A DNA stretch of 17,319 nucleotides, from the IMG/VR virus record IMGVR_UViG_2547132281_000005; one strand, 5' to 3'. The stretch comes from a virus. Lineage: Duplodnaviria; Heunggongvirae; Uroviricota; Caudoviricetes. A model generated the notes under the pieces. That model saw nothing but the letters and a program-made list of their open reading frames with translations, was not told the origin of the DNA and ran no database searches. Position numbers and translations under genes: made by a program. Below, in pieces: positions 559 through 17,319 of the stretch; within the stretch, counting starts at the first letter, position 1, and each line of letters starts with the position of its first letter.

Positions 559-565
559 TGAATGC

Positions 566-864: not shown

Positions 865-918
865 GCCTCCGGAACAAATAAGGGCAAAAATAACAACCAC
901 TATCGAAAGCTCACAAAC

Positions 919-1135
919 TAACCGCAGCACGTTCCTGCATACGACGTGTCTGCGGCATAATCCCAATGATTACTCCCTGACAGGATTTGCAGGCCACTCA
1001 ATATCAGGTGCAGTTGATGTATCAACACGATTCAACAATACCCGATATTTATTCCATGCCTCCAGCAACGATCTTTCTTCCTCCGTTGCGATTTCCAGAT
1101 CTACAGCATCCTGCAGTGGCGCAATATACTCACTG
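919..1135. repeat. Direct repeat copy A (tfa 3' end plus downstream hairpin)
   Basis: About 217 bp, roughly 85-90% identical by eye to 1969-2185 (constant offset 1050 bp), same orientation. Contains hairpin 922-955 about 15 nt after the tfa-like stop. Confidence 0.7.
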
Positions 1136-1239
1136 AATTCCTGGATGTAGAACTGTGTGGTGACGGTCTTCCAGCCATTCGGCTCCTGCTGTATCGAAGC
1201 ATACCAGGCTATTTCAATATCGCTATGCTGCGGCAGCAT
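970..1239 (-). CDS. Short chimeric tail fibre assembly (Tfa)-like protein, 89 aa
   Basis: C-terminal 52 aa ([52 protein letters not shown]) differ at only 5 positions from the Tfa C-terminus at 2019-2603. N-terminal 36 aa are unrelated. ATG at 1239 is preceded by AAGGGG with a 4-nt spacer. Confidence 0.5.
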
Positions 1240-1295
1240 TTAACCCCTTGTAATTCATCGCCATAATTGATTTAATTCACAAATAAAACTATAAC

Positions 1296-1964
1296 ATGGT
1301 GAAATCAATGAAAAAAAACACAGATGATGGGGCTAAAATTTACACACCACTTACCCTAAAGCTTTATGACTGGTGGGTTTTGGGAGTATCAAATCGGCTT
1401 GCATGGGGATGTCCTACAAAGGAACACCTTCTTCCACACTTTCTGGAACATGTAGGTAACAACCATCTGGATATTGGTGTTGGAACTGGGTTTTACCTTA
1501 CTCACGTACCTGAGAGTAGTCTGATATCTTTAATGGATTTGAACGAAGCTAGCCTGAACGCGGCATCTACAAGGGCTGGGGAATCAAAAATTAAACATAA
1601 AATTAGCCATGATGTTTTTGAACCTTATCCCGCGGCGTTACATGGTCAATTTGATTCCATTTCCATGTTTTACCTTCTTCACTGCCTGCCTGGAAATATA
1701 TCTACAAAAAGCTGTGTAATACGCAATGCGGCGCAGGCCTTAACTGACGATGGAACTCTATACGGAGCCACAATTCTTGGCGATGGAGTTGTGCACAATA
1801 GCTTCGGTCAAAAACTGATGCGCATTTACAATCAGAAAGGCATCTTTTCAAACACAAAAGATTCCGAAGAAGGCTTAACACATATACTCTCAGAGCATTT
1901 CGAGAATGTTAAAACCAAGGTTCAAGGTACTGTAGTAATGTTTTCCGCTTCAGGGAAAAAATAG
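1296..1964 (+). CDS. Class I SAM-dependent methyltransferase (about 220 aa)
   Basis: Motif I LDIGVGTGFYL, acidic residue after beta-2 (MDLN), and later FDSISMFYLLHCLP and LTDDGTLYGATI blocks typical of the Rossmann-fold methyltransferase layout. Alternative start ATG at 1308 has GGTGA 5 nt upstream. Stop TAG at 1962-1964. Confidence 0.7.
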   Translation: MVKSMKKNTDDGAKIYTPLTLKLYDWWVLGVSNRLAWGCPTKEHLLPHFLEHVGNNHLDIGVGTGFYLTHVPESSLISLMDLNEASLNAASTRAGESKIKHKISHDVFEPYPAALHGQFDSISMFYLLHCLPGNISTKSCVIRNAAQALTDDGTLYGATILGDGVVHNSFGQKLMRIYNQKGIFSNTKDSEEGLTHILSEHFENVKTKVQGTVVMFSASGKK

Positions 1965-1968
1965 CATC

Positions 1969-2185
1969 CAACCGCAGCACGTTCTTGCTTAAGACGAGCT
2001 GCGGCATAATCCCAATGATTACTCCCTGACAGGGTTCGTAGGCCACTCAATATCAGGTGCAGTTGATGTATCAACACGGTTCAGCAACACCCGATACTTT
2101 TTCCAGGCTTCCAGCAATGAGGTTTCTTCCTCCGTTGCAATTTCCAGATCTGCAGCATCCTGAAGCGGCGCAATATGCTCACTGG
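1969..2185. repeat. Direct repeat copy B (tfa 3' end plus downstream hairpin)
   Basis: Partner of 919-1135; contains hairpin 1972-2004 immediately after the convergent stops of the methyltransferase and tfa. Confidence 0.7.
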
Positions 2186-2603
2186 CTACCTGCATCAGGT
2201 TGTTTTTTGTTTCTTCCGCCTCCCGGATCCGGAACAGTTTTTCTGCTTCCGTATCCTTCACCCAGGCTGTGCCGTTCCACTTCTGAAACTCCCCTTCCGG
2301 CGATAACCAGGTAACATTTTCCGGTAACGGACCGAGTTCAGAAATAAATAACTCGTCCCCTGACGCTACGTCATAAACCGTTTTACCCCGATGGTCTTCA
2401 ACGAGATGCCACGATGCCTCATCACTGTTGAAAACAGCCACAAAGCCAGCAGGAATATCTGGTGGTGCAATATCGGTACTGTTTGCTGGCAGACCTGTAT
2501 GAGGCGGAATATATGCGTCACCTTCACCAATAAATTCATTAGTTCCGGCCAGCAGATTATAAATTTTTATGGTCCGTGCTTGTTCACTCATTCTGAATGC
2601 CAT
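2019..2603 (-). CDS. tfa: Tail fibre assembly protein Tfa (194 aa)
   Basis: Same length as lambda Tfa (194 aa) and conserved Tfa C-terminal block. Its ATG (2603-2601) overlaps the stop of the upstream fibre ORF in a TAATG arrangement, as in the lambda stf-tfa pair. Confidence 0.85.
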
Positions 2604-3550
2604 TATGCAAGCCTCACAATATAGTTAAATGCGATGTTTTTGACGGTGTTTTCCGCGTTACCCGCAGCGTTAACGGTGATGGTGTGTCCATGTGAACCAA
2701 TCGCAACGGAGTGCGTATGCGCACCAATACCTACAGTATGTGCATGTGCGCCAGAACTTGCTGCAGTACCAGACAGCGAGTGGGTATGAGCACCTGCTGA
2801 CTGTGTCTGAATACGTTGATAATACGATCTATAGGAAGAAGTCTCCGGGCTTACTTGATACTGTGAATTCTGGACATAAGTGAACCCACCGCCATCATAA
2901 AATGCTAACGCAGAACCGCCGCCTCCTGGCCAACGAATACCATTACCATGAGTATGAACACCGGCAGACCCCGTAGAGCCACTCAGACTGTGCGTATGCG
3001 CCCCGGTGTTATTCGTGGATTTAGTGCCGTAATCAAACGACGATGTGGTTTTCGTCCCCAAATCCGTACTGGATGCGCTGGCGCTGTGGGTGTGCGATTT
3101 AATGCCGTCCTGTTCCTGAGACAATACGGCCCGGCCACTGGCGGGTTTGCCCTTGATTGTCCAGCCGCGCATATCTGGAATAACACCTGAAGGATAGGCA
3201 ATAGCCAGTTTCGGATATGCTGCCTTATCAAACGTCTGCCCCTGCATGATTGCATAACCTGCAGGTGGTGTATCTGATGGCCACGGCAGCGGAACACCTG
3301 GCGGAAACGCTTCAATATTTGCCGAGCCGTCAAATTTTACGCCGTTAATTGTCCTTGCAGTTTGCAATTTGGTTGCTGTGCTTGCATTAGTCGAGGCTAA
3401 GGGCTTTTTTAACCTCGCATCCGCGCCTGCGGTAACACTGAATGAGCCATTCGGCCTGTTCTTCAGTGCATGGGGGGTGCTGGTACCAGTCTGACTTAAA
3501 TGCATGAGAATACCGCTCGTGCGTGTGGGCAAGAACGGTCGAATTATCAT
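2603..3550 (-). CDS. stf: Side tail fibre protein, C-terminal fragment (lambda orf-314-like), N-terminally truncated
   Basis: 315-aa ORF rich in G/S/T/A with repeated GAHTHS / HxH motifs and a [13 protein letters not shown] block typical of Stf C-terminal regions. The frame hits a stop at 3602-3604 just upstream and the ATG at 3550 has no RBS, so the N-terminal shaft portion is missing. Confidence 0.6.
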
Positions 3551-3578
3551 GATTGTAATATTTTGCGTTGCGTGCCAT
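3387..3578 (-). CDS. Hypothetical 63-aa protein overlapping the stf fragment in another frame
   Basis: ATG at 3578 preceded by GGAGA with a 6-nt spacer; sequence is not fibre-like ([23 protein letters not shown]...). Could instead be a chance ORF. Confidence 0.35.
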
Positions 3579-3644
3579 CGGTTTTCTCCGGTGGCACGGT
3601 GTTACTCAGCGGGAGTTCAGCCCCGCGCAAGATTGTAGATGAGT

Positions 3645-3896
3645 TTATTCTTCTGAAAAAGCAGAAAAGCCAGCTTTTATTCCGATCTCTTTCAATGCCT
3701 GTAATGAAGTGACAAACTCACCGTCGCGCAAGATAAATCCGTCCGTCACTCGGGCATCCACAAAATTAATTAACGCAGCCCCATTTTTTTGCAAACACAC
3801 AATGCGGTAATGACTAACAATATTTCCATTTTCAACGCACACAGCATAGAGGCCATCTTCACAAAAAATTTTACGCAGTTCTTCGATGTTCATCAT
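3645..3896 (-). CDS. Hypothetical 83-aa protein
   Basis: Tandem ATG ATG at 3896-3891 preceded by GGAAGGA with a 5-nt spacer. No recognisable family. Confidence 0.5.
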   Translation of the reverse strand: MMNIEELRKIFCEDGLYAVCVENGNIVSHYRIVCLQKNGAALINFVDARVTDGFILRDGEFVTSLQALKEIGIKAGFSAFSEE

Positions 3897-4011
3897 CAGA
3901 ATCCTTCCGGATAATTAGCTCTCCCCTTTAAGGGACCATCCCTCTTATCCCTGCGCGCTACTTAAGTATTTTTGATTCTATTCCGGCACCGTCCAGAACT
4001 TCAAACGCGTT

Positions 4012-4043
4012 GAAAATAAAAACAAAAACCCGCCGAAGCGGGT
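4012..4043 (-). terminator. Rho-independent terminator of the hok transcript
   Basis: On the minus strand: stem ACCCGC / GCGGGT (4028-4043) with 4-nt loop, followed by TTTTTGTTTTTATTTT (complement of 4012-4027). Confidence 0.55.
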
Positions 4044-4112
4044 TAAGTGCGGGTGCGTTGAGGATGCCTGCCACATCAGAGGTGGCGAGGGATTTCTCCC
4101 TCGCCGGGTCTC

Positions 4113-4268
4113 TTACTCCTCAGGTTCGTAAGCTGTGAAGACAGCGACCTCCGTCTGGCCGGTTCGGATTCGTACCTCGCAGAGGTCTTTCCTCGTTACC
4201 AGTGCCGTCACTATGACGGTTAAACAGATGACGATCAGGGCGATTAGCATCGCCTTTTGCTGCTTCAT
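4113..4268 (-). CDS. hok: Hok/Gef family type I toxin (51 aa)
   Basis: MKQQKAMLIALIVICLTVIVTALVTRKDLCEVRIRTGQTEVAVFTAYEPEE closely matches the Hok/Gef family as I recall it. ATG at 4268 preceded by GGAGA; stop TAA at 4113-4115. Confidence 0.85.
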   Translation of the reverse strand: MKQQKAMLIALIVICLTVIVTALVTRKDLCEVRIRTGQTEVAVFTAYEPEE

Positions 4269-4325
4269 AGCCTGCTTCTCCTTGCCTTTCGGCACGTAAG
4301 AGGCTAACCTACGTGTGTAGAGCAT
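4113..4325 (-). CDS. mok: Mok (modulator of killing) reading frame, in-frame N-terminal extension of hok
   Basis: 70-aa ORF sharing the stop and frame with hok, as in chromosomal mokC/hokC. Confidence 0.55.
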   Translation of the reverse strand: MLYTRRLASYVPKGKEKQAMKQQKAMLIALIVICLTVIVTALVTRKDLCEVRIRTGQTEVAVFTAYEPEE

Positions 4326-4370
4326 AGGTATGGCCTCAGATTAATGTTAAGCGTCTTGCCGGACGCGTAA
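4295..4370 (+). ncRNA. sok: Putative Sok-like antisense RNA (position inferred, boundaries approximate)
   Basis: Inferred from hok/sok organisation: the antisense RNA should overlap the mok initiation region. A plus-strand hairpin GCGTC-ttgccg-GACGC lies at 4351-4366 but lacks a clean U-run, so the end is uncertain. Confidence 0.25.
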
Positions 4371-4443
4371 TGTTAACTGGGGCTTTTCTCTATCTGCCTT
4401 TGGTGTTGATGCCCGAGGCAGATAGCCTCAAGCACCCGCAGCA

Positions 4444-4472
4444 ATTCTACTTAACTACCGTTACCTCGCCAA
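4444..4472 (-). promoter_or_regulatory. Candidate sigma-70 promoter for the hok/mok mRNA
   Basis: Minus strand reads TTGGCG (complement of 4467-4472), 17-nt spacer, TAGAAT (complement of 4444-4449). A 9-bp stem 4390-4398 / 4417-4425 sits in the predicted 5' leader. Confidence 0.4.
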
Positions 4473-4479
4473 TATGAAA

Positions 4480-4569
4480 TCAATCAGAAAGGTGATCCAT
4501 AAGAACAACAGCAAGACAATAAATTGCCATTACAGCAGCAATAGCCAGCGCACATTTGAGAACCAGCAC
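4480..4569 (-). CDS. Candidate small hydrophobic peptide (29-30 aa, type I toxin-like)
   Basis: AGGAGG (complement of 4575-4580), 5-nt spacer, GTG at 4569; encodes VLVLKCALAIAAVMAIYCLAVVLMDHLSD, then TGA (4482-4480). The DNA here is TGY-repetitive and open in several frames, so this may be chance. Confidence 0.25.
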   Translation of the reverse strand: MLVLKCALAIAAVMAIYCLAVVLMDHLSD

Positions 4570-4947
4570 CACAACCTCCTGTATTGGACGTACACCAGTC
4601 CTGATAAATATGAGGCTGTCTCGTCAGTGATTCAATACAACTACTGGGTATAGTTTCTATGATTTTGTTCTGTGGAAATGGAAAACAGCAACCAGTCACC
4701 ACCAGCACTTCTTTAAACATGCCAAGTCACACGCAAGCCAACATTATAGTTCCCTTTGAGCGAGCAGATGAAGCTAGCAAAAATATTGATCACTTAGGAT
4801 GCATTACTAACGTTGCTATGTGTTAACGAACAGGGAGTGGGTCATCAGCATAAATATTTATGCAGTAGGTTTCTTTTAGGACTAGATTAATCAAAAACAT
4901 TTAGATAAAATTATAAAATCAAGAAATTGGTGGCAATTAATCTTTAA

Positions 4948-4976
4948 TTGTGCCAGCTGAATTTCGTTATTATAGA
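4948..4976 (+). promoter_or_regulatory. Candidate promoter for the membrane-protein/methyltransferase operon
   Basis: TTGTGC (4948-4953), 17-nt spacer, TATAGA (4971-4976) in an AT-rich region upstream of the GGAGAG SD and ATG at 5011. Confidence 0.3.
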
Positions 4977-5326
4977 AGATTAGCTTTTTTTTGAATGTTT
5001 GGAGAGTAAAATGTTAGAACCACCAAAGAGTTATAATGAAATGTTGCCTATGCTCCATAAGGCGACTTTTATTACTACATTTATATTTTACCTATCATTA
5101 GTCATTTATGGCTACATGCCATTGGTTGGCATTAATGCCAAGTATATCCCCCCCGTTAAAGACTACGAGGAATTTATTAAATGGATATTAACCTTTGGCA
5201 TATTACCAATTGCATCTTCAGTTTTTTGGTCAGTAATTAGTGGAGCTTTAGATCTACATAATAATGTAGCAAAAATTATTGGAATAAGGAAGATGTGGGA
5301 TAGTCATTTAATTATTAAACCATTAG

Positions 5327-6521
<1,195 letters not shown>

Positions 6522-6911
6522 TTAGCAAAAATTGCAGGCGTTACGAGAAAATTAACTACTGATGAATCTCACAAGGTAATGAGTAAACTGTATTACCCAG
6601 AAGTTAAAGAGTTAAAAGACAAACATTACGTTGAACTTTTCTGGAACAAAGTTTATTACTTTTGGGTTTTCTTTGAACATACAGTAATCGCATTTGTTAC
6701 TATTTTAATAATAAGTATCGCCAAATTAACAAATATATTCTCTGTTACTGGCTCTTTAATTAATCTTTGGTTGTGGATTATTTCTCTTGTCGCATTTGAC
6801 TTCCTTATTTTCATAGCATCAGTTAAACCAAGAACAGAAAGCCAAGTAAGACAAATACCTGATAGCAAAATAAAAGAATTCTTTAACAATAACAATATTT
6901 TTTAAACGAGG

Positions 6912-7571
6912 TTGATTTTGAATTACAAAATAAATGGAATAAACATACGTTCAGAAAATGCAGCGAAACCGCACACTATGCCATCTAACTATCTCTGTAA
7001 ACAGATTGAAAGCACTAATAAAAATGGCAATGCCCTTGATTTTGGATGTGGAAAACTTAGATATTCAGAACAATTAGTAAATAAATTTGAAACTGTGACA
7101 TTTTTAGATTCCAGAAGACAACTAGAAAGAGTGCAAATTATCAGAGGTGTACAAACCACGATTCCAGATTACGTGATAAATAACTATAAGAATGCTAATA
7201 TTGTTTCTTATGAAAATATAGATAAAATAACAAATCATTATGATTTCATACTTTGCGCAAACGTGCTTTCCGCAATTCCATGTGAATCCACAATTCACAA
7301 AGTCCTCAGTGCGATTAGAGAATTATTAAAGAGTGATGGTGAAGCACTGATTGTCAATCAATACAAAAGTTCTTATTTCAAGAGGTACGAGAGCGGTATT
7401 AAACATTTGCATGGGTATATATACCAAAACTCTCGTAATGCTTTCTACTATGGTTTATTAGATGTGGATACTGTAAGTAAAATATGCTCAGATAATAATT
7501 TAGAAATAATAAAATCATGGAGCAAAGCAGGTAGTTCATATGTGGTTGTTGGTAAACATATACATATTTAG
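6912..7571 (+). CDS. TehB-like class I SAM-dependent methyltransferase (about 217-219 aa)
   Basis: Motif I ALDFGCGKL, acidic LDSR, YDFILCANVLSAIP and LKSDGEALIV blocks resemble TehB-type methyltransferases. Likely start is TTG 6918 (GAGG 6908-6911, 6-nt spacer) or TTG 6912; begins 7 nt after the membrane-protein stop. Confidence 0.7.
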   Translation: MILNYKINGINIRSENAAKPHTMPSNYLCKQIESTNKNGNALDFGCGKLRYSEQLVNKFETVTFLDSRRQLERVQIIRGVQTTIPDYVINNYKNANIVSYENIDKITNHYDFILCANVLSAIPCESTIHKVLSAIRELLKSDGEALIVNQYKSSYFKRYESGIKHLHGYIYQNSRNAFYYGLLDVDTVSKICSDNNLEIIKSWSKAGSSYVVVGKHIHI

Positions 7572-7885: not shown

Positions 7886-8785
7886 TTATAAATCAACAAC
7901 ATTTAGTGTTATATCAATATTATTTAGCCTTGCAATCTCTGATGAATCACTTGCTATTTTAGCTTTTAATTTATCAATATTAATCATATCTTCATGGCTT
8001 ATATAAACCATATCACCTTGGTTAACTTTAGATTTGTTCACTATGGCTTGAATAACAGACAAATCATCCATTACACCTCTCATAAATTTCACCATGCTTT
8101 GATCTTTGAAGTCAGATATCGATTTTGAGCGTTGCTTACGTTGAATTGTTCCTTTTGTAATTACTTCATTAATTTCTTTTAAACCAGTGAGCATATCAGA
8201 CAGACTGCCTTCGCAACTCATCCGATGTTTTATTGCATTGCGATTAATAATATTGAGTATAATTTCGAGTGAATCTTTATCACTCCATGGATGTAATGAT
8301 GTATAATCATGATGGCGTCGAATGGCGTCAATCATATCCTGGACCATATCTTCATCTGCTTTATCGCAAAGTTCATTCACGAAATAGCTGGGGTCGATTA
8401 TTTTACAATAACTTGGAGTTAGGTATCTTGAGGCTTTACAAAAACCAAAAATATATAAAGTAGAGTATTTATCTTTCAGACTCTCTCCTATTTCATTTGT
8501 TTCCTCAAAAGATTCGATAGTTTTTTTAATTTTTGCTGGACTTGCATTCGTAGTAACTTGAACTGCTATCATGTTTTTATTATCAGCTAAATCAATGGCG
8601 GGAAAATTAACTTTAATCTGATTCATGTTTACCAGTTCACCCATTTTCAGCGCGCGAAACATAAAGATGGTCAATGACTCAATTATTCTTTCCATGTCAT
8701 GAAAGCCTGCCTGTTTGCGTTGCGCGATATAAAGCTGGAGTAGTGCAATATCACTCTGTAAGTTTCTAATAAGTGGATCAATCAT
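7886..8785 (-). CDS. Hypothetical 299-aa protein, AT-rich orphan (candidate defence/abortive-infection gene)
   Basis: ATG at 8785 with AGGA upstream; long uninterrupted ORF, convergent with the methyltransferase. No recognisable catalytic motif (no HExxH, no Walker A, no TM segments). Confidence 0.7.
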   Translation of the reverse strand: MIDPLIRNLQSDIALLQLYIAQRKQAGFHDMERIIESLTIFMFRALKMGELVNMNQIKVNFPAIDLADNKNMIAVQVTTNASPAKIKKTIESFEETNEIGESLKDKYSTLYIFGFCKASRYLTPSYCKIIDPSYFVNELCDKADEDMVQDMIDAIRRHHDYTSLHPWSDKDSLEIILNIINRNAIKHRMSCEGSLSDMLTGLKEINEVITKGTIQRKQRSKSISDFKDQSMVKFMRGVMDDLSVIQAIVNKSKVNQGDMVYISHEDMINIDKLKAKIASDSSEIARLNNIDITLNVVDL

Positions 8786-10968: not shown

Positions 10969-11179
10969 TGTTCAACCGCCCCGCCCGCTTCGTCTTACGA
11001 TATTCGTCATAAACCTTGGGATCATACAGAAGCTCGCCGCCAGATGCCTCCTGTAGACGCATCGCGCGACCTTCAGGAACTAGCTCTTGCCATTGAGAAA
11101 CAGCAGATGGGTCAACGCCAGCAGCTTTCGCTACTTTGGCTTTCGTACCGTAAAAATTAATTACGTCTGATTTAAACAT
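10952..11179 (-). CDS. Cro-like / YdaS-like HTH regulator (about 75 aa)
   Basis: ATG at 11179 preceded by GGAGG (complement of 11184-11188) with a 4-nt spacer; HTH segment TKAKVAKAAGVDPSAVSQW; divergent from the repressor gene. Confidence 0.65.
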   Translation of the reverse strand: MFKSDVINFYGTKAKVAKAAGVDPSAVSQWQELVPEGRAMRLQEASGGELLYDPKVYDEYRKTKRAGRLNNENHS

Positions 11180-11191
11180 CGCACCTCCAAT

Positions 11192-11207
11192 ATTGAGTTT
11201 TCTCAAT
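11192..11207. promoter_or_regulatory. Palindromic operator candidate in the divergent repressor/cro promoter region
   Basis: Perfect 16-bp palindrome ATTGAGTTTTCTCAAT; the same TTGAGTTTTCTCA core recurs twice at 11729-11778. Confidence 0.45.
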
Positions 11208-11664
11208 GCTAATCACTCAAGGAATCTCAAGTCAAGGATTATTAAGATATCTAAATATGAACGAGAAAACTTTAGGTCAACGCATTAGAGAAAGACGTAA
11301 GCAGGTAGGCTTAAGTCAAAACGGTTTAAGCAAAGCTGCTGGCGTATCTGGCTCATCAATTTCATTATGGGAAAGTGACCATACAGCCCCGCGCGGGCAA
11401 AATTTGCATCGCCTCGCCGAGGTATTGCAATGTTCACCAACCTGGATACTGTTTGGCGACGAGGACAAAACACCAGCTCCCCCTGTTTCACTCGATAGTA
11501 CCCTAGACTTATCGGAAGATGAGTTAGAGATGCTGCGTTTGTATCGCGCACTTCCTAAATCAGAGCAACAAGCACAACTCAGCGAACTCCGCGCCCGCGT
11601 TGAGAATTTTAATCGCCTGTTCACCGAGCTATTAGAGGCTCGCAAACGCAACAAGCATCAATAA
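11206..11664 (+). CDS. cI/C2-like prophage repressor, N-terminal HTH (XRE family), no S24 peptidase domain
   Basis: From the internal ATG 11257 the protein starts MNEKTLGQRIRERRKQVGLSQNGLSKAAGVSGSSISLWE, like the P22 C2 / RacR-type N-terminus as I recall it. Either 11206 or 11257 may be the start; both lack a strong SD (possibly leaderless). Confidence 0.8.
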   Translation: MLITQGISSQGLLRYLNMNEKTLGQRIRERRKQVGLSQNGLSKAAGVSGSSISLWESDHTAPRGQNLHRLAEVLQCSPTWILFGDEDKTPAPPVSLDSTLDLSEDELEMLRLYRALPKSEQQAQLSELRARVENFNRLFTELLEARKRNKHQ

Positions 11665-11728
11665 TCATCCCTTCACAAAATTTTAAAGCCTTACATTTCA
11701 ATGTATTGGCTTTATCTTGCGCCAACAC

Positions 11729-11780
11729 TTGAGTTTTCTCATCAAAAAACCTTGACGAAAAATAATGAGAAAACTAAATT
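11729..11780 (+). promoter_or_regulatory. Candidate early-left promoter flanked by operator half-sites
   Basis: TTGACG (11752-11757), 17-nt spacer, TAAATT (11775-11780), bracketed by the inverted repeat TTGAGTTTTCTCAT (11729-11742) / ATGAGAAAACT (11765-11775). Confidence 0.4.
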
Positions 11781-11856
11781 ACCTCCATCAACACACCGCA
11801 CGGTGTTCTCCGCAAACAGTTCCGCTACCCCGGCGTTAAGGGGAAATGAGGTCAGC

Positions 11857-12012
11857 ATGGATACTATCGATCTTGGCAACAACGAATCTCTGGTGTACGG
11901 CGTGTTTCCAAACCAGGACGGCACGTTCACCGCAATGACGTATACCAAAAGCAAAACGTTTAAAACCGAAAATGGTGCCCGTCGCTGGCTGGAAAGAAAC
12001 TCAGGTGAGTGA
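11857..12012 (+). CDS. Hypothetical 51-aa protein (YdaF-like position and size)
   Basis: ATG 11857 with GAGG 5 nt upstream; MDTIDLGNNESLVYGVFPNQDGTFTAMTYTKSKTFKTENGARRWLERNSGE; stop TGA 12010-12012. Confidence 0.55.
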   Translation: MDTIDLGNNESLVYGVFPNQDGTFTAMTYTKSKTFKTENGARRWLERNSGE

Positions 12013-12013
12013 T

Positions 12014-12142
12014 ATGGATTTCGACACAATCATGGAAAAGGCTTACGAAGAATACTTCGAAGGCCTTGCCGAAGGCGAAGAAGCTCTCAGCTTCAGTGAG
12101 TTTAAACAGGCGCTTTCCAGCTCGGCAAAATCTAACGGCTGA
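12014..12142 (+). CDS. Hypothetical 42-aa acidic protein (YdaG-like position and size)
   Basis: ATG 12014 two nt after the upstream stop, with AGGTGA 5 nt upstream; MDFDTIMEKAYEEYFEGLAEGEEALSFSEFKQALSSSAKSNG. Not in the ORF track because it is under 60 aa. Confidence 0.4.
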   Translation: MDFDTIMEKAYEEYFEGLAEGEEALSFSEFKQALSSSAKSNG

Positions 12143-12171
12143 TAAGCGAAGCAGCACCGCGAGGAATCAGT

Positions 12172-12390
12172 ATGCAGAAACGAGAACCCGTCATCATCGC
12201 GCCAGACTATACCGATGATGAACTTTATGAGTGGATGCACCAGAAAATTAATGCAGCGCAGGATCTGAAATGGGCCAATGAAGCCAGGGCTAAGCAGGCT
12301 GAAAATCTGTCCGCTCTGGAGCAGGATATCACTAATCTGGAAAAAGCAGCGGCATTAAGCATTGCCAGAATGATTACATACCCGCGTTAA
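12172..12390 (+). CDS. Hypothetical 72-aa protein
   Basis: ATG 12172 with GAGGAA 5 nt upstream; stop TAA 12388-12390. Confidence 0.6.
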   Translation: MQKREPVIIAPDYTDDELYEWMHQKINAAQDLKWANEARAKQAENLSALEQDITNLEKAAALSIARMITYPR

Positions 12391-12393
12391 TAG

Positions 12394-12791
12394 CTAACCA
12401 ACGAAGCTAAGGTTGGTAATTAAGGAGTTCTCCACGGATGAGGTGGAGTGCGTGCGCCGGACACGGGTGAGCATCCGGCACAGACAGTTTACTGAAAGGA
12501 TATTTCCCTGAAAGGTCAGACCATAACGCGAAAGCGCACGGCGAGGTAGCTGGTTCATAGATAGCCTGTCGTTAAATTTTCGTCGACCGTGCGCTTCCGG
12601 TTGTGGCAATCCGCGAAATGGCGCGGCGGTGAGTATGGCGGGGTTATTCCTTCCCCGTTGAGGACACCGGGTTGTCAGGTTGACCATACGCTTAAGTGAC
12701 AACCCCGCTGCAACGCCCTCTGTTATCAATTTTCTGGTGACGTTTGGCGGTATCAGTTTTACTCCGTGACTGCTCTGCCGCCCTTTTTAAA
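12394..12791 (+). ncRNA. GC-rich structured non-coding region (candidate ncRNA or structured leader), strand assumed from the flanking operon
   Basis: No plausible ORF on either strand. Consecutive perfect stems: ACCAAC/GTTGGT (12397-12417), CTCCAC/GTGGAG (12430-12448), GCCGGA/TCCGGC (12456-12479), CGC-GAAA-GCG (12527-12536), GCGCACGG/CCGTGCGC (12534-12594), CCGCG/CGCGG (12611-12626), CGGGG/CCCCG (12639-12657), GGGTTGTCA/TGACAACCC (12669-12705), and GGCGG...CCGCC followed by CTTTTT (12746-12788). Confidence 0.3.
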
Positions 12792-12795
12792 GTGA

Positions 12796-12937
12796 ATTTT
12801 GTGATGCGGTGAATGCGGCTGAGCGCACGCGGAACAGTTAAAACCAAAAACAGTGTTATGGGTGGATTCTCTGTATCCGGCGTTAATTGTTAACTGGTTA
12901 ACGTCACCTGGAAGCACCAGGCACCGCATCACAAAAT
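12796..12937. repeat. Perfect 16-bp inverted repeat pair bracketing about 110 bp
   Basis: ATTTTGTGATGCGGTG (12796-12811) and its exact reverse complement CACCGCATCACAAAAT (12922-12937); interior carries GTTAAC-tg-GTTAAC palindromic sites. Confidence 0.5.
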
Positions 12938-12957
12938 TCATTGTTGAGGACGCGATA

Positions 12958-13146
12958 ATGGAAACGTTATTACCAAACGTTAATACGTCTGAAGGTTGTT
13001 TTGAAATTGGTGTCACTATCAGTAACCCTGTATTTACTGAAGATGCCATTAACAAGAGAAAACACGAACGGGAGCTATTAAATAAAATATGCATTCTTTC
13101 AATGTTGGCCCGTTTACGTCCGATACAAAAAGGATGCTGGCAATGA
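12958..13146 (+). CDS. Hypothetical 62-aa protein
   Basis: ATG 12958 with GAGGA 7 nt upstream; its stop TGA (13144-13146) overlaps the next ATG in an ATGA arrangement. Confidence 0.45.
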   Translation: METLLPNVNTSEGCFEIGVTISNPVFTEDAINKRKHERELLNKICILSMLARLRPIQKGCWQ

Positions 13147-13334
13147 ATACAGCATTTGCACTTGTTCTGACAGTTTTTCTTGTTTCCGGAGAGCCAGTTG
13201 ATATTGCAGTCAGTGTTCACAGGACAATGCAGGAGTGTGTGACTGCAGCAACCGAACAGAAAATTCCCGGTAACTGTTACCCGGTCGATAAAGTTATTCA
13301 CCAGGATAATAACGAAATCCCGGCAGGTCTTTAA
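13143..13334 (+). CDS. Small exported protein candidate (63 aa, N-terminal hydrophobic signal-like segment, two Cys)
   Basis: ATG 13143 with AAAGGA 8 nt upstream; MNTAFALVLTVFLVSGEPVDIAVSVHRTMQECVTAATEQKIPGNCYPVDKVIHQDNNEIPAGL. Confidence 0.5.
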   Translation: MNTAFALVLTVFLVSGEPVDIAVSVHRTMQECVTAATEQKIPGNCYPVDKVIHQDNNEIPAGL

Positions 13335-13426
13335 AACAGTTCCGTAATAAACATCCGATTTCATTCTTATATGCCAGCAATGGCAGGGATTTGTTCACCC
13401 TTAAATCTGTAATGAGGTAAAACAAA

Positions 13427-15898
13427 ATGAGTAAAGTCTTTATTTGCGCCGCCATTCCGGACGAACAGGCAATAAAGGAAGAAGGTGCCGTCGCTGTAGC
13501 CACTGCCATTGAAGCCGGTGATGAACGTCGCGCCCGCGCAAAATTTCACTGGCAATTCCTGGAACATTATCCGGCTGCTCAGGACTGCGCTTATAAATTT
13601 CTTGTTTGCGAGGATAAACCCGGTATACCCCGCCCTGCCCTCGATTCCTGGGATGCTGAATATATGCAGGAAAACCGCTGGGATGAGGCGTCTGCTTCCT
13701 TTGTCCCGGTCGAGACTGAATCCGATCCGATGAACGTCACTTTTGACAACCTAGCCCCTGAAGTACAGAACGCTGTCATGGTTAAGTTCCACACATGTGA
13801 AAAAATCACTGTTGATATGGTGATTAGCGCACAGGAATTGTTGCAGGAAGACATGGCAACATTCGACGGCCATATCGTTGAAGCGTTGATGAAAATGCCA
13901 GAAGTTAACGCTATGTATCCGGAGCTTAAGCTGCATGCCATCGGGTGGGTTAAGCATAAATGTAAGCCTGGTGCCAAATGGCCCGAAATTCAGGCAGAGA
14001 TGCGCATCTGGAAAAAACGTCGCGAAGGTGAACGCAAGGAAGCCGGAAAATACACGTCTGTTGTTGATCTCGCCCGCGCCAGAGTCAATCAACAGCACAC
14101 TGAAAATTCAACAGGAAAAATCAACCCGGTCATTGCTGCCATTCATCGCGAATACAAGCAGACATGGAAAACACTGGATGACGAACTGGCCTACGCTCTC
14201 TGGCCTGGTGATGTGGATGCCGGAAACATTGACGGCAGCATCCATCGCTGGGCAAAAAATGAAGTTATCGACAACGACCGCGAAGACTGGAAGCGTATCT
14301 CGGCATCAATGCGCAAACAGCCTGATGCCCTTCGCTACGACCGCCAGACTATTTTTGGCCTTGTCCGTGAACGTCCGATCGACATTCACAAAGACCCTGT
14401 GGCACTGAACAAATACATTACTGAATACCTGACTACAAAGGGCGTGTTTGAAGATGAAGGAAGAAATCAGAGCGCAACTGATACTCTCTCGTCGCCAGTA
14501 CCAGAAACTGATGCAGTGGAAACGGCAATTCCGGACAACGAAAAAACCGAATGCAAAGTGGAAGTCGAACCATCTGTAGAGCGTGAGGGGCCGTTCTACT
14601 TCCTCTTCACCGACAAGGATGGCGAAAAATACGGTCGCGCAAACAAACTTTCTGGTCTGGATAAGGCGCTGGCTGCCGGGGCAACTGAAATCACGAAAGA
14701 AGAATATTTTGCCCGCAAAAACGGCACATACACAGGTTCACAACAAAATACTGATGCATCTGACACGACCGCACAACCAGACCTGGTAAAAGTTACCGCT
14801 GACGAAGTAAACAAAATTATGCAGGCAGCCAGTATCAGCCAGCCTGACGCTAATAAGTTGCTCGCTGCATCACGTGGTGAATTTGTTGAAGGGATTAGCG
14901 ACCCGAATGATCCGAAATGGGTGAAGGGGATTGAAACCCGCGATTCTGTGCACCAGAACCAGTCAGAAACGGAACAGTACGACCAAAAAGCGGAACAAAA
15001 CAGCCAAAATGCGTTACAAAACGAGCCAGAAACGAAACAACCTGAACCAGTCGTGCAACAGGAAGAGGAAAAAGTTTGTACCGCATGCAATCAGACTGGT
15101 GGTGGTAACTGCCCTGATTGTGGCGCAGTGATGGGTGACGCAACCTACCAGGAGACATTCAACGAAGAAAGCCAGGATGAAGCCCGGGAAAAAGATCCAG
15201 AGGAAATAGAAAATGCCGGACTCCCGAACAAGGAGTGCACCGAAGGCGATCAACATGCCAATGACAATAATGAAATAGGCGAGACAGCAAATCCCTTAAT
15301 TAAGGTGAACAGTCATCGTAAAAGCACATCCACCAGCAGGTTGTGGCACCATCTGATGATTGACCTTGAAACCATGGGAAAAAATCCTGATGCCCCGATT
15401 ATCTCAATAGATGCAATATTTTTCGATCCGCAAACCGGAGATATGGGACCGGAATTTAGTAAGACTATCGATCTGGAAACTGCTGGCGGAGTCATTGATC
15501 GTGACGTCATTAAAAGGTGGCTGAAGCAATCACGTGAAGCGCAGTCTGCCATTATGACCGATGAAATCCCGTTAGATGATGCACTGTTACAATTGCGGGA
15601 ATTTATCGACGAAAACTCCGGTGAATTTTTTGTTCAGGTCTGGGGAAATGGAGCCAACTTCGAAAACACGATTTTGCGCCGTTCATACGAACGGCAGGGG
15701 ATCCCCTGCCCATGGCGTTACTACAACGATCGCGATGTACGCACAATCGTTGAGCTGGGGAAAGCCATAGACTTCGATGCCAGAACGGCTATTCCATTCG
15801 AAGGTGAGCGCCATAATGCACTTGATGACGCCCGTTACCAGGCAAAATACGTTTCAGTTATCTGGCAAAAACTGATCCCGAATCAGGCTGATTTTTAA
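13427..15898 (+). CDS. Large multidomain protein (823 aa) with C-terminal DnaQ/Orn-like DEDDh 3'-5' exonuclease domain
   Basis: ATG 13427 with GAGG upstream. Central acidic/Gln-rich linker and CxxC-x9-CxxC zinc-ribbon-like motif (CTACNQTGGGNCPDCG, about 15076-15123). C-terminal about 185 aa (15341-15895) carry MIDLETMG (Exo I), VWGNGANFENTIL (Exo II-like) and HNALDDARYQAKY (Exo III). Confidence 0.85.
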   Translation: MSKVFICAAIPDEQAIKEEGAVAVATAIEAGDERRARAKFHWQFLEHYPAAQDCAYKFLVCEDKPGIPRPALDSWDAEYMQENRWDEASASFVPVETESDPMNVTFDNLAPEVQNAVMVKFHTCEKITVDMVISAQELLQEDMATFDGHIVEALMKMPEVNAMYPELKLHAIGWVKHKCKPGAKWPEIQAEMRIWKKRREGERKEAGKYTSVVDLARARVNQQHTENSTGKINPVIAAIHREYKQTWKTLDDELAYALWPGDVDAGNIDGSIHRWAKNEVIDNDREDWKRISASMRKQPDALRYDRQTIFGLVRERPIDIHKDPVALNKYITEYLTTKGVFEDEGRNQSATDTLSSPVPETDAVETAIPDNEKTECKVEVEPSVEREGPFYFLFTDKDGEKYGRANKLSGLDKALAAGATEITKEEYFARKNGTYTGSQQNTDASDTTAQPDLVKVTADEVNKIMQAASISQPDANKLLAASRGEFVEGISDPNDPKWVKGIETRDSVHQNQSETEQYDQKAEQNSQNALQNEPETKQPEPVVQQEEEKVCTACNQTGGGNCPDCGAVMGDATYQETFNEESQDEAREKDPEEIENAGLPNKECTEGDQHANDNNEIGETANPLIKVNSHRKSTSTSRLWHHLMIDLETMGKNPDAPIISIDAIFFDPQTGDMGPEFSKTIDLETAGGVIDRDVIKRWLKQSREAQSAIMTDEIPLDDALLQLREFIDENSGEFFVQVWGNGANFENTILRRSYERQGIPCPWRYYNDRDVRTIVELGKAIDFDARTAIPFEGERHNALDDARYQAKYVSVIWQKLIPNQADF

Positions 15899-15962
15899 TG
15901 TTCAACCCCGGTCGTTGCCCACCAGCTATAGTGGCGGCGACCATGATTAGCGAACGACGCTC

Positions 15963-16211
15963 ATGGCAAGACTTATTCTGCTCACTGAGTGGGCAAAAGA
16001 GGAATTCAGTGAACCGGTCCCAACTCCGAGTACGTTAAGTAAATACGCTAAAGCCGGAATGATATTTCCTCTCCCCAAAAAAGTTGGAAGACGCTGGCGA
16101 GTGGATCCGCAAGCTCGCTTTGTCGGAATGGTAAACAAGCCGGAGGTGATCGCCACAGATCACCCTGCTTTGAAGAGGATACTGGAAGATGGCGCGCCCG
16201 CGAAAATATAA
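15963..16211 (+). CDS. xis: Excisionase (Xis)-like protein, 82 aa
   Basis: Small basic protein immediately upstream of and overlapping the integrase start; KYAKAGMIFPLPKKVGRRWRV resembles excisionase-type DNA-binding motifs. Confidence 0.7.
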   Translation: MARLILLTEWAKEEFSEPVPTPSTLSKYAKAGMIFPLPKKVGRRWRVDPQARFVGMVNKPEVIATDHPALKRILEDGAPAKI

Positions 16212-17319
16212 AACCAATGTTCCGGGATTATCTCCTTATTTTGACAAAAGAAATAACAAAGTTTACTGGCGTTACAGGCATCCCATAACAGGCAAAAATC
16301 ACGGTCTCGGCAGTATTGACCAGAAACTGGCAGAAACTATTGCAGCAGAAGCGAACAGCCGTCTTGCCCGGCAGCAAATGGAACAAATGCTCAGTCTGCA
16401 GGAGAAAATTATTAGTGATACCGGCGGTTCATCAACCGTTACCATTTTTCTGAATAATTACAGAAAAATTCAACAGGAAAGATATGAAAACGGCGAGATC
16501 AAACTCAACACGCTGAAACAGAAAGCGGCCCCTCTCAGGGTATTTGATGAACGTTTTGGCACCAGACCGTTAGATGCCATAACCGTAAAAGATGTGGTAT
16601 CAGTACTGGAAGAGTACAAGGCCAGAGGACATAACAGAATGGGACAAATTTTCAGGAAGGTACTGATCGATGTTTTCCGGGAAGCTCAGCAAACGGGCGA
16701 TGTCCCGCCAGGCTTTAACCCTGCAGAATCGGCAAAAAAACCGCAGGTGCGGATATCAAGACAGCGACTGACTTTTGATGAGTGGATGATGATTTATAAC
16801 GCAGCGGAAAAGGATGGTTACTTTTTACAGCGCGGTATGCTGCTGGCACTGATGACAGGCCAGCGCCTTTCAGATATTTGCAAAATGCAATTTTCGGATA
16901 TCCGGGATGGTTATCTTCATGTCGAACAGCAAAAAACAGGAACCCGGATTGCCATCCCTCTGGCTCTGCGTTGCGATAAATTAAATCTCACCCTGGATGA
17001 TGTAGTGTCATCCTGCCGCGATTGTGTTCTTAGTCCGTGGCTATTGCACCACCATCACGCGAAAGGGACAGCTAAGCGCGGCGGGATGGTTAAGCCAGCA
17101 ACATTAACCGTTGCATTTAAAAAAGCCCGGGATTCTGTGGATTACAACTGGCGTGCTAATGGCACCCCACCCTCTTTCCATGAGCAGAGATCTTTATCAG
17201 AGCGATTGTTCAGAGAGCTGGGGGTTGATACCAAAATTTTGCTAGGCCATTCGAATCAAAAAATGACCGATATTTACAACGATGTACGCGGTAAGGAGTG
17301 GAAAAAACTGGTCATTTGA
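16189..17319 (+). CDS. int: Lambda-family tyrosine integrase (376 aa)
   Basis: N-terminal arm-binding motif LSPYFDKRNNKVYWRYRHPITGKNHGLG parallels lambda Int (LPPNLYIRNNGYYCYRDPRTGKEFGLG); C-terminus LLGHSNQKMTDIYNDV carries the catalytic Tyr region. Stop TGA is the last codon of the window. Confidence 0.9.
   Translation: MARPRKYKTNVPGLSPYFDKRNNKVYWRYRHPITGKNHGLGSIDQKLAETIAAEANSRLARQQMEQMLSLQEKIISDTGGSSTVTIFLNNYRKIQQERYENGEIKLNTLKQKAAPLRVFDERFGTRPLDAITVKDVVSVLEEYKARGHNRMGQIFRKVLIDVFREAQQTGDVPPGFNPAESAKKPQVRISRQRLTFDEWMMIYNAAEKDGYFLQRGMLLALMTGQRLSDICKMQFSDIRDGYLHVEQQKTGTRIAIPLALRCDKLNLTLDDVVSSCRDCVLSPWLLHHHHAKGTAKRGGMVKPATLTVAFKKARDSVDYNWRANGTPPSFHEQRSLSERLFRELGVDTKILLGHSNQKMTDIYNDVRGKEWKKLVI

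What the first reader, a model, noticed from the sequence alone, without database searches (positions are those of the whole stretch)
13427..15898. 823-aa protein in the recE position fuses a large N-terminal region and a zinc ribbon to an Orn/RNase T-like 3'-5' exonuclease, with no recT-like partner
In Rac-type prophages the large gene between the immunity region and xis-int is recE (5'-3' exonuclease, PD-(D/E)xK fold) with recT beside it. Here the large ORF ends in a domain with DEDDh-type motifs (MIDLETMG, GNGANFENTIL, HNALDDARYQA), which implies the opposite polarity, and no annealing-protein gene is present. Upstream of the nuclease are an acidic/Gln-rich linker and a CxxC-x9-CxxC motif. 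The fusion could be a recombination or repair function with unusual chemistry, an anti-defence nuclease, or an exclusion/defence effector. The Exo II aspartate appears to be replaced (NFE rather than FD), so activity is not assured.
Basis: partly seen in the sequence, partly recalled or inferred. Interest (0 to 1): 0.7.

Follow-up and report, generated by a model that had tools for sequence, protein, structure and literature searches.

The report
RecE-scaffold prophage 3'-5' exonuclease (intact YdfE)
The 823-residue gene is real: it is the intact form of E. coli K-12's broken ydfE, a common, already-annotated but untested prophage protein that joins a RecE-like front part to a T4 DexA-type 3'-5' exonuclease, with no annealing partner.

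Summary
The ORF at 13427-15898 (+) is confirmed. It lies in a cryptic Qin/DicB-type prophage next to ompW in E. coli, in the order dicA-like repressor, ydfABC, DicF, dicB, ydfD, this gene, xis, int.

Its last 183 residues are a confident DEDDh exonuclease of Pfam PF16473 (E 1e-60). The closest solved fold is T4 DexA. Residues 262-625, including the zinc ribbon and acidic linker, are homologous to the non-nuclease part of RecE. Residues 1-257 are 95% identical to the K-12 ydfE pseudogene product. The window holds no RecT and no RecE nuclease domain.

The protein is not rare. This DEDDh domain occurs in 4089 of 5426 complete E. coli genomes, against 1736 for the true RecE nuclease. RefSeq names it "3'-5' exonuclease" and PHROG 2082 covers its full length.

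The family is mosaic. Two N-terminal modules combine with a DEDDh nuclease, a PD-(D/E)XK nuclease, a probable Rad52-like annealase, or no recognised effector.

The Exo II Asp-to-Glu change (E746) is peculiar to this allele lineage. Nearly all relatives keep Asp.

No experiment on the fusion was found. The nearest tested relatives are T4 DexA and the E. coli anti-T4 exonuclease EcD (2025). I read it as a new variant of known kinds, of moderate interest.

The parts
13414..13417 (+). Shine-Dalgarno GAGG, 9 nt upstream of the ATG
   Evidence: Read directly from the sequence.
13427..15898 (+). 823-aa CDS: the intact ydfE-type gene, identical to WP_000048463.1 ('exonuclease' / '3'-5' exonuclease')
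   Evidence: PHROG 2082 matches 1-823 of 823.
13427..14209 (+). N-terminal module, aa 1-261 (the start of the region that precomputed Pfam labels YdfE_N/YdfE_C, PF27430/PF27432). It is 95% identical to the K-12 YdfE pseudogene product over aa 1-257. Fold and function unknown.
   Evidence: dN/dS is 0.12 against the phage Tritos allele. The AF2 model is poor here.
14210..14566 (+). aa 262-380, a segment shared with RecE aa 278-~400
   Evidence: BLASTP against K-12 RecE, alignment A1 and module BLAST.
14567..14746 (+). aa 381-440, a small beta-beta-alpha-beta-alpha domain (GPFYFLF...GRANK...EITKEEY). It is absent from RecE and accompanies the YdfE-type N module in relatives.
   Evidence: pLDDT 81-86. 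dN/dS 0.05. Module BLAST. Invariant residues in alignment A3.
14858..15076 (+). aa 478-550, the hub shared with RecE (LLAASRGEFVEGISDPNDPKWVKGI) followed by a Glu/Gln-rich stretch
15077..15160 (+). aa 551-578, zinc ribbon CTACNQTGGGNCPDCGAVMGDATYQETF (CxxC-x7-CxxC), nearly identical to RecE 518-545
   Evidence: The same motif sits on a Dam-like methylase in L017.
15161..15346 (+). aa 579-640, acidic linker predicted to be disordered. The homology to RecE ends at ~aa 625.
   Evidence: pLDDT 25-33, composition, alignment A1.
15347..15895 (+). aa 641-823, DEDDh 3'-5' exonuclease domain (PF16473; the DexA/EcD/Rv2179c family). Catalytic positions are D646, E648, E746, H796 and D801.
15662..15664 (+). 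GAA codon for E746, at the Exo II position where the family has Asp. This is a lineage-specific allele.
12732..12783 (+). DicF sRNA, upstream in the same DicA-repressed operon (context)
   Evidence: Rfam RF00039, 76.7 bits.
12958..13334 (+). dicB (12958-13146) and ydfD (13143-13334), immediately upstream (context)
   Evidence: RefSeq annotation of the identical locus. Pfam DUF1482 for ydfD and precomputed Pfam DicB.
15963..17319 (+). Excisionase (15963-16211) and integrase (16189-17319), immediately downstream. No gene lies between the exonuclease and xis.

Best explanation
What it is (shown):
This is the intact version of the gene that survives in K-12 only as the IS2-truncated pseudogene ydfE. 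It is a mosaic early-left-operon protein of Qin/DicB-type lambdoid (pro)phages and has three parts:
1. A YdfE-type N-terminal module (aa 1-~440), function unknown.
2. A hub inherited from the RecE lineage: a conserved peptide, a CxxC-x7-CxxC zinc ribbon and a disordered acidic linker (aa ~478-640).
3. A DexA/EcD/Rv2179c-family DEDDh exonuclease domain (aa 641-823) in place of RecE's PD-(D/E)XK nuclease.

How it most likely works (inferred):
- The gene lies in the position of K-12 ydfE at the end of the DicA-repressed dicBF-type operon, so I infer it is mostly silent in the lysogen and made when DicA repression is lifted or during lytic growth.
- The C-terminal domain then removes nucleotides from 3' ends by two-metal DEDDh chemistry, most likely on DNA, as its nearest structural relative T4 DexA does.
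- The N-terminal platform and zinc-ribbon hub supply targeting or assembly.
- It has the opposite polarity to RecE and no annealase, so it cannot carry out RecET-type single-strand annealing.
- I take it to be a DNA-end trimming or degrading enzyme. It would remove 3' tails or degrade linear host or foreign DNA, in the manner of DexA.

This allele: it carries D746E at the Exo II metal ligand and W697R. It is probably attenuated.
For: Identity and context:
- The window is 100% identical to two RefSeq E. coli chromosomes, with the order dicA-like HTH, ydfA/B/C, DicF, dicB, ydfD, this gene, xis, int, ompW.
- Residues 1-257 are 95% identical to K-12 YdfE, which is cut by IS2.

Domains:
- PF16473 matches with E 1e-60.
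- The AF2 model is confident over the domain and the top PDB fold is T4 DexA at E 3.7e-11.
- The catalytic residues align with DexA D7, E9, D119, H186 and D191.
- Residues 262-625 align with RecE 278-591, and the match is near-identical across the hub and zinc ribbon.

No annealase and no PD-(D/E)XK remnant. Functional phages show the same arrangement (Tritos, vB_EcoS-640R1).

Module swapping:
- RecE-type N-terminus with DEDDh: L005, P0244, P0252, P0256.
- YdfE-type N-terminus with PD-(D/E)XK: P0258.
- YdfE-type N-terminus with a probable Rad52-like domain: P0255, P0259, P0266, P0288, P0327.
- YdfE-type N-terminus with no recognised effector: P0386, in the same kilR-X-xis-int slot.

Selection: dN/dS is 0.12 for the N module, 0.05 for the small domain and 0.21 for the DEDDh domain, against 0.3-0.8 for the linkers.

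Regulation: PMC10448788 lists ydfA-E as members of the DicA-repressed dicBF operon.

Allele: E746 and R697 are the only departures from positions that are at least 90% conserved among 158 homologues.
Against: - No biochemical or genetic data exist for this fusion. PMC10448788 names YdfD as the only characterised dicBF operon product besides DicF and DicB.
- Substrate is not settled by sequence. The founding family member Rv2179c is, from my own knowledge of the literature, a 3' exoribonuclease, whereas DexA and EcD act on DNA.
- In K-12, no transcript extending into ydfE was detected, so co-transcription of the intact gene is inferred, not shown.
- The N-terminal module could not be modelled (mean pLDDT 49, no fold match). 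Its targeting role is pure inference from its modular distribution.
- E746 may leave this copy weak or inactive.
Confidence: 0.6

Rival explanations
1. Superinfection-exclusion or defence nuclease of the EcD/HREX type. On this reading the DEDDh domain selectively degrades incoming modified (5hmC-type) phage DNA and spares host DNA, protecting the lysogen from T-even phages.
For: - PMC12153337 reports that the E. coli DexA homologue EcD degrades T4 DNA but not unmodified DNA, and protects against T4.
- From the paper's primers and a viral-contig scan, EcD is very probably a 189-aa stand-alone PF16473 protein. It begins MIDTETLGNG and has Ala at position 78, as the paper describes.
- The window's domain is 36% identical to that protein over its whole length, E 1e-33.
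- The gene is prophage-borne and sits beside dicB, which itself blocks some phages (PMC6832061, listed).
Against: - DexA W152, reported as needed for 5hmC recognition, aligns to Tyr766 here and to Cys, Thr or Val in close relatives.
- The Asp-to-Ala change said to make EcD dimer-only is absent here (D718).
- The gene lies in a repressor-controlled early operon and is kept by functional phages.
- There is no PADLOC match, although that database predates EcD.
- The 640-aa RecE-like scaffold has no counterpart in EcD.
- My identification of EcD rests on primers, and the reverse primer differs from the recovered sequences by one base.
Confidence: 0.2
2. 3' exoribonuclease. On this reading the domain trims RNA 3' ends, as Rv2179c does, for example host or phage transcripts or the DicF precursor made from the same operon.
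For: - The Pfam family is named for the Mycobacterium exoribonuclease Rv2179c.
- Fold neighbours after DexA are RNase T, Orn, REXO2 and ERI.
- DicF is matured from the same polycistronic transcript.
Against: - The nearest solved fold and the nearest tested enterobacterial relative (DexA, EcD) are DNA exonucleases.
- The domain replaces a DNA exonuclease on a RecE scaffold, in a slot otherwise filled by DNA recombination proteins.
- DicF maturation is already explained by RNase E and RNase III.
Confidence: 0.1
3. In this window the gene is a decaying passenger. The prophage is a remnant, and this allele's nuclease has been crippled by D746E and W697R, so nothing functional remains beyond an open reading frame.
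For: - The prophage is defective. An IS5 transposase lies at 5473-6489, tail-fibre fragments lie at ~2019-3550 within about 1.5 kb of a Rha gene, and no head or tail genes are present.
- E746 and R697 fall at the two most conserved positions where this allele departs from 158 homologues.
Against: - The frame is intact over 2472 nt, and the same GAA allele is carried by 365 complete-genome records.
- Glu retains the carboxylate.
- dN/dS for the domain against the Tritos allele is 0.21.
- The rest of the family is clearly under selection and is present in viable phages.
Confidence: 0.1

Closest known systems
RecE (exonuclease VIII) of the Rac prophage, E. coli K-12
   Same: - Same genomic slot, between the immunity/kil region and xis-int.
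- Residues 262-625 are homologous to RecE 278-591. This covers the LLAASRGEF...KWVKGI hub, the CxxC-x7-CxxC zinc ribbon and the acidic linker.
- The RecE N-terminal region is likewise of unknown function (PMC11611040).
   Different: - There is no PD-(D/E)XK nuclease domain, and the NCBIfam RecE model scores far below its cut-off.
- The predicted polarity is the opposite, 3'-5'.
- No recT overlaps or follows the gene.
- The first ~260 residues belong to a different module (YdfE type rather than PF06630).
T4 DexA (exonuclease A; PDB 8KEL/8KEN)
   Same: - Same Pfam family, PF16473.
- Best structural match.
- The DEDDh catalytic positions align.
- It is also a phage-encoded 3'-5' DNA exonuclease.
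   Different: - DexA is a 227-aa stand-alone protein with extra loops.
- Identity is only ~19-24%.
- DexA W152 is Tyr here.
- DexA belongs to a virulent phage with modified DNA.
EcD / 'HREX' (E. coli DexA homologue, GenBank HAK9828821.1; PMC12153337)
   Same: - Same Pfam family and the same compact version of the fold.
- 36% identity over the whole domain to the probable EcD sequence.
- It is carried on a mobile element with an integrase.
   Different: - EcD is a ~189-aa stand-alone protein and is rare, found in 31 of 5426 complete E. coli genomes against 4089 for this domain.
- The Trp and Ala features stressed for EcD are not shared.
- No phenotype is known for the fusion.
YdfE (b1577) of the Qin prophage, E. 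coli K-12
   Same: 95% identical over aa 1-257, in the same operon position after dicB-ydfD.
   Different: K-12 ydfE is a pseudogene cut by IS2 and has lost everything after aa ~257, including the nuclease. K-12 therefore gave no hint of the full architecture.
Rv2179c (Mycobacterium tuberculosis) and RNase T / oligoribonuclease
   Same: DEDDh fold and motifs. Rv2179c is the namesake of the Pfam family.
   Different: These are stand-alone cellular RNA exonucleases. None has a RecE-like scaffold or a prophage context.

Membership tests
PF16473 Rv2179c-like / DexA-type DEDDh exonucleases | Profile match above the curated threshold | tested here: met
   204.9 bits against a cut-off of 27, E 1e-60, aa 641-813 covering profile positions 1-177 of 177.
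PF16473 Rv2179c-like / DexA-type DEDDh exonucleases | Exo I motif D-x-E | tested here: met
   D646 and E648 align with DexA D7 and E9.
PF16473 Rv2179c-like / DexA-type DEDDh exonucleases | Exo II catalytic Asp | tested here: not met
   This allele has E746 (GAA). The family has Asp in 110 of 113 clusters, and 1 of 157 homologues has Glu. The carboxylate is retained. The failure applies to this allele, not to the gene family.
PF16473 Rv2179c-like / DexA-type DEDDh exonucleases | Exo III motif H-x4-D | tested here: met
   H796 and D801 align with DexA H186 and D191.
PF16473 Rv2179c-like / DexA-type DEDDh exonucleases | DnaQ-like fold | tested here: met
   AF2 pLDDT is 82-95 over the domain. Foldseek's top hits are DexA 8KEL (E 3.7e-11, TM 0.67-0.74 on the target), then RNase T and Orn.
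PF16473 Rv2179c-like / DexA-type DEDDh exonucleases | Mg-dependent 3'-5' exonuclease activity | not testable with these tools
   Needs a biochemical assay.
RecE / exonuclease VIII (NCBIfam NF007259) | Full-length equivalog match | tested here: not met
   252.9 bits against a cut-off of 1269. Only aa 245-625 match model positions 270-602.
RecE / exonuclease VIII (NCBIfam NF007259) | C-terminal PD-(D/E)XK 5'-3' nuclease domain | tested here: not met
   BLASTP and tblastn with RecE aa 592-866 find nothing in the protein or the window.
RecE / exonuclease VIII (NCBIfam NF007259) | Adjacent or overlapping recT annealase gene | tested here: not met
   xis follows directly, and there is no RecT-like sequence in the window. 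By contrast, recT appears under the match in each of the listed top RecE-nuclease hits.
RecE / exonuclease VIII (NCBIfam NF007259) | Homologous non-nuclease region (hub and zinc ribbon) | tested here: met
   38% identity over 370 columns, E 3e-56, near-identical from aa 478 to 625.
YdfE (Pfam YdfE_N PF27430 / YdfE_C PF27432) | Match to the YdfE domains and to K-12 YdfE | tested here: met
   Precomputed Pfam hits are listed for this exact protein. It is 95% identical to K-12 YdfE over aa 1-257. These two models are not in the local Pfam copy, so I could not rescore them.
HREX / EcD anti-phage exonuclease (PMC12153337) | DexA-family domain with intact catalytic residues | tested here: inconclusive
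   Same family, 36% identity to the probable EcD, but Exo II is Glu in this allele.
HREX / EcD anti-phage exonuclease (PMC12153337) | Trp equivalent to DexA W152 (reported 5hmC recognition), and loss of the D90 tetramer contact | tested here: not met
   W152 aligns with Y766, and D90 aligns with D718, which is retained. The D169 equivalent could not be aligned reliably.
HREX / EcD anti-phage exonuclease (PMC12153337) | Protection against T4 and selective cleavage of 5hmC DNA | not testable with these tools
   Needs plaque and nuclease assays.

The most novel reading that the evidence does not exclude
The YdfE/RecE N-terminal platform and its zinc-ribbon hub may be a targeting module that does not care about nuclease polarity. 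Lambdoid prophages would use it to deliver interchangeable effectors (a 5'-3' PD-(D/E)XK exonuclease, a 3'-5' DEDDh exonuclease, a Rad52-like annealase, or none) to one cellular target such as DNA ends or the replisome. On this reading the DEDDh form, present in about three quarters of E. coli genomes, defines an annealase-independent DNA-end pathway or a widespread latent anti-phage nuclease. K-12 genetics would have missed it because K-12 ydfE is truncated.
Probability: 0.25. Interest if true: 0.7.

Novelty: new variant of a known kind. Interest (0 to 1): 0.35.

Why it matters
The standard picture of the lambdoid "recombination slot" comes from lambda Red and K-12 RecET, which pair a 5'-3' exonuclease with an annealase. 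In E. coli at large, the commoner occupant of that slot is this protein. It keeps RecE's still-unexplained front part but carries a nuclease of opposite polarity and has no annealase.

K-12 hides this because its copy (ydfE) is cut by IS2.

The module shuffling offers a way to study what the dispensable 600-residue N-terminal part of RecE does. The 2025 EcD result raises the question of whether most E. coli strains carry a latent DexA-type nuclease that is active against phage DNA.

For genome annotation, many phage records still call this gene "exodeoxyribonuclease VIII", which is wrong for the nuclease domain.

Tried and rejected
- **Structure of aa 1-460.** AF2 gave mean pLDDT 49. The alignment was shallow because the protein search returned almost only close E. 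coli relatives. Foldseek on that model gave no hit below E 1. The N-terminal fold stays unknown.
- **PADLOC scan.** No defence-system model matches the protein.
- **PDB sequence search, full length.** Only T4 DexA matched, weakly at E 0.0045.
- **Rad52-like C-termini of relatives.** A PDB profile search gave nothing.
- **Literature searches.** Searches for ydfE, Rv2179c, PF16473/DUF5051, "exodeoxyribonuclease VIII + DEDD" and full-length RecE found no study of this fusion. The Gifsy-1/RtcR paper was read and is unrelated.
- **Promoter and terminator scan of 11000-17319.** Counts were no higher than in shuffled sequence, so no private promoter can be claimed.
- **Rejected: a frameshifted or fused annotation artefact.** The same 823-aa frame recurs in viable phages and in thousands of genomes.
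- **Rejected: a diverged PD-(D/E)XK domain.** The Pfam match, the predicted fold and the motifs all say DEDDh.
Full report
**1.

The window has a single 823-codon ATG ORF at 13427-15898 on the + strand. A GAGG ribosome-binding site sits 9 nt upstream.

The three quoted motifs are at aa 644 (MIDLETMG), 740 (GNGANFENTIL) and 796 (HNALDDARYQA). The cysteine motif is at aa 551-565. Its spacing is CxxC-x7-CxxC, not x9.

The stretch before the nuclease is Glu/Gln-rich: aa 500-550 are 19.6% E and 19.6% Q. The stretch after the ribbon is acidic: aa 566-640 are 16% E.

**2. Where the window comes from**

The gene is 100% identical to loci in two RefSeq E. coli chromosomes. There it is WP_000048463.1, named "exonuclease" or "3'-5' exonuclease".

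The gene order is:
- DicC-like Cro and a DicA-like HTH repressor
- ydfA, ydfB, ydfC
- DicF sRNA (Rfam, 12732-12783)
- dicB, then ydfD
- this gene
- xis, then int
- host ompW

This is a Qin/DicB-type lambdoid prophage. In this window it is clearly a remnant. It has an IS5 transposase, tail-fibre fragments within about 1.5 kb of a Rha gene, and hok/sok.

In K-12 the same operon ends in ydfE, a pseudogene cut by IS2. Its product is 95% identical to aa 1-257 of this protein. The window therefore holds the intact form of ydfE.

A 2023 study lists ydfA-E as members of the DicA-repressed dicBF operon. It states that, apart from DicF and DicB, only YdfD has been characterised (PMC10448788).

**3. Domain anatomy**

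*C-terminal nuclease.* Pfam PF16473 (Rv2179c-like 3'-5' exoribonuclease domain) matches aa 641-813 at E 1e-60. A model built on a 35-sequence alignment has pLDDT 82-95 over the domain. Its best PDB matches are T4 DexA (8KEL/8KEN, E 3.7e-11), then RNase T, a DnaQ domain, REXO2 and oligoribonuclease. Alignment with DexA places D646, E648, E746, H796 and D801 on DexA's D7, E9, D119, H186 and D191.

*RecE-derived centre.* The NCBIfam RecE model matches only aa 245-625 and scores far below its cut-off. BLASTP against K-12 RecE aligns aa 262-625 with RecE 278-591 (E 3e-56). The match is almost identical from LLAASRGEF through the zinc ribbon and the acidic linker, and it ends just where RecE's nuclease domain starts. 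The zinc ribbon and linker are therefore RecE heritage and not a new addition.

*N-terminal region.* Precomputed Pfam labels call it YdfE_N and YdfE_C (PF27430, PF27432). Its structure could not be modelled, apart from a small domain at aa 385-435.

**4. No partner**

Pfam on all other sizeable ORFs finds no RecT, Erf or Rad52 domain. tblastn with K-12 RecT and with the RecE nuclease domain finds nothing in the window.

The same arrangement, with the exonuclease followed directly by xis and int, occurs in the phage records Tritos and vB_EcoS-640R1.

In Rac, by contrast, recE overlaps recT. In the listed top matches to the RecE nuclease domain in E. coli, recT appears under the match each time.

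**5. It is common and already catalogued**

| Query | Complete E. coli genomes with a match (of 5426) |
|---|---|
| Whole gene, at least 80% covered | 3533 |
| DEDDh domain alone | 4089 (up to 7 copies per genome) |
| True RecE nuclease domain | 1736 |

PHROG 2082 ("exonuclease") is an 823-position profile that this protein matches from end to end. Many phage records still label the gene "exodeoxyribonuclease VIII", which is wrong for the catalytic domain.

**6. A mosaic family**

A search of 1.8 billion representative proteins, followed by module-by-module BLAST and Pfam, shows every combination:

| N-terminal module | C-terminal part | Examples |
|---|---|---|
| RecE type (PF06630) | DEDDh | P0244, P0252, P0256; phage 640R1, |
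| YdfE type | DEDDh | this protein |
| YdfE type | PD-(D/E)XK (DUF3799) | P0258 |
| YdfE type | ~270-aa domain I believe is a Rad52-like annealase | P0255, P0259, P0266, P0288, P0327 |
| YdfE type | no recognised effector | P0386 (Enterobacter), same kilR-X-xis-int slot, |

The Rad52-like assignment rests on sub-threshold Pfam Rad52_Rad22 hits in 5 of 5 members (best E 0.0024). It also rests on a collinear hhalign match at E 0.013 to a human RAD52 sequence that I recalled from memory.

Pectobacterium phage ZF40 gp07 is annotated "exonuclease". It has that Rad52-like C-terminus, and a Gam-like gene follows it.

The platform is thus shared among DNA-recombination effectors of different chemistry. 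This ties it to DNA-end transactions but does not say what it does.

Between this allele and the Tritos allele the folded modules are under purifying selection. dN/dS is 0.12, 0.05 and 0.21 for the folded modules, while the linkers are relaxed.

**7. The Exo II substitution**

E746 is encoded by GAA at 15662-15664.
- Among 113 homologue clusters showing the motif, 110 have FD, 2 have FE and 1 has FN.
- Among 158 full-domain homologues, this allele departs from at-least-90%-conserved residues only at D746E and W697R.
- The exact 63-mer carrying GAA is in 365 of 3959 matching records, always in the ompW prophage where checked.

So the family is canonical DEDDh. This lineage carries a conservative change at a metal ligand and is probably attenuated, though I could not test that.

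**8. What is known about relatives**

A 2025 paper (PMC12153337) solved the T4 DexA structure. It reports that an E. coli homologue, EcD, degrades 5hmC-containing T4 DNA but not unmodified DNA, and protects cells from T4.

I identified a probable EcD sequence from the paper's cloning primers and a scan of viral contigs. It is a 189-aa stand-alone PF16473 protein. It starts MIDTETLGNG and has Ala78, as the paper describes. The reverse primer differs from the recovered sequences by one base.

The window's domain is 36% identical to it. That stand-alone gene is rare, in 31 of 5426 genomes.

The Trp that the paper links to 5hmC recognition (DexA W152) is Tyr766 here and varies in close relatives. 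The Asp-to-Ala change stressed for EcD is absent. A defence role is therefore possible but not indicated by those residues. PADLOC has no model for it.

**9. Most likely mechanism**

*Shown:* the domain composition, the DEDDh motifs and fold, the operon position, the absence of an annealase, and the selection on the modules.

*Inferred:*
- The protein is made when DicA repression is lifted.
- The C-terminal domain removes nucleotides from DNA 3' ends, as DexA does.
- The N-terminal platform and hub target or assemble it.
- With the wrong polarity and no annealase, it does not perform RecET-type annealing recombination. It acts instead as a DNA-end trimming or degrading enzyme.

Rivals are an EcD-like exclusion nuclease (0.2), an RNA 3' exonuclease (0.1), and, for this allele only, a crippled passenger (0.1).

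**10. Verdict**

The thing is neither rare nor unannotated.

Its interest lies in three points. It is the majority occupant of the "recE slot". It shows that RecE's enigmatic N-terminal part is a portable platform. And its function is untested, while a 2025 precedent links the nuclease family to anti-phage activity.

I rate it a new variant of known kinds, interest 0.35.

Noticed in passing
L017 5187-6991 (IMGVR_UViG_2671181127_000013): The probable EcD gene (6401-6991, minus strand) lies next to a 326-aa Dam-like methylase ORF. That ORF's C-terminal tail carries [24 protein letters not shown], the same zinc-ribbon motif as RecE and as aa 551-574 of the window protein. The ribbon therefore looks like a portable module attached to three different DNA enzymes.
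   Followed up: partly
P0255, P0259, P0266, P0288, P0327; L043 2714-4879 (Pectobacterium phage ZF40 gp07): Relatives with the YdfE-type N-terminus end in a ~270-aa domain with Rad52-like motifs (FGP.G..WG and KKSLTDA.KKALS.LGF). PHROG 2489 and the phage records call these proteins 'exonuclease', which is probably a mis-annotation of an annealase fusion. In ZF40 the next gene is Gam-like.
   Followed up: partly
window 15515-15517 (aa 697): There is a second lineage-specific change in the nuclease domain, W697R. The position is Trp in 92% of 158 homologues.
   Followed up: partly
window 7886-8785 (-) and 6912-7571 (+): A 299-aa SMEK-domain protein matches a PADLOC Argonaute-associated N-terminal domain model (E 1e-20). 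It sits beside a class I SAM methyltransferase in the prophage's replication-side region. This may be a defence cargo.
   Followed up: no
window 1-6489: The left part of the window shows a prophage remnant: a Rha regulator (1-558), a methyltransferase (1296-1964), tail-fibre assembly and tail-fibre fragments (2019-3550, minus strand) with an Rfam IS009 RNA match at 2062-2260, hok/sok (4113-4437), and an IS5-family transposase (5473-6489).
   Followed up: no
E. coli complete genomes: Prevalence ranking of nuclease domains: the DEDDh domain of this gene is in 4089 genomes, the RecE PD-(D/E)XK domain in 1736, and the stand-alone EcD-like gene in 31, out of 5426. K-12 is atypical in having RecET and only a broken ydfE.
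   Followed up: yes
window 12759-13364 (-): A 201-aa antisense ORF overlaps dicB and ydfD. It is Cys-rich and of low complexity, and RefSeq does not annotate it there. It is most likely spurious.
   Followed up: no
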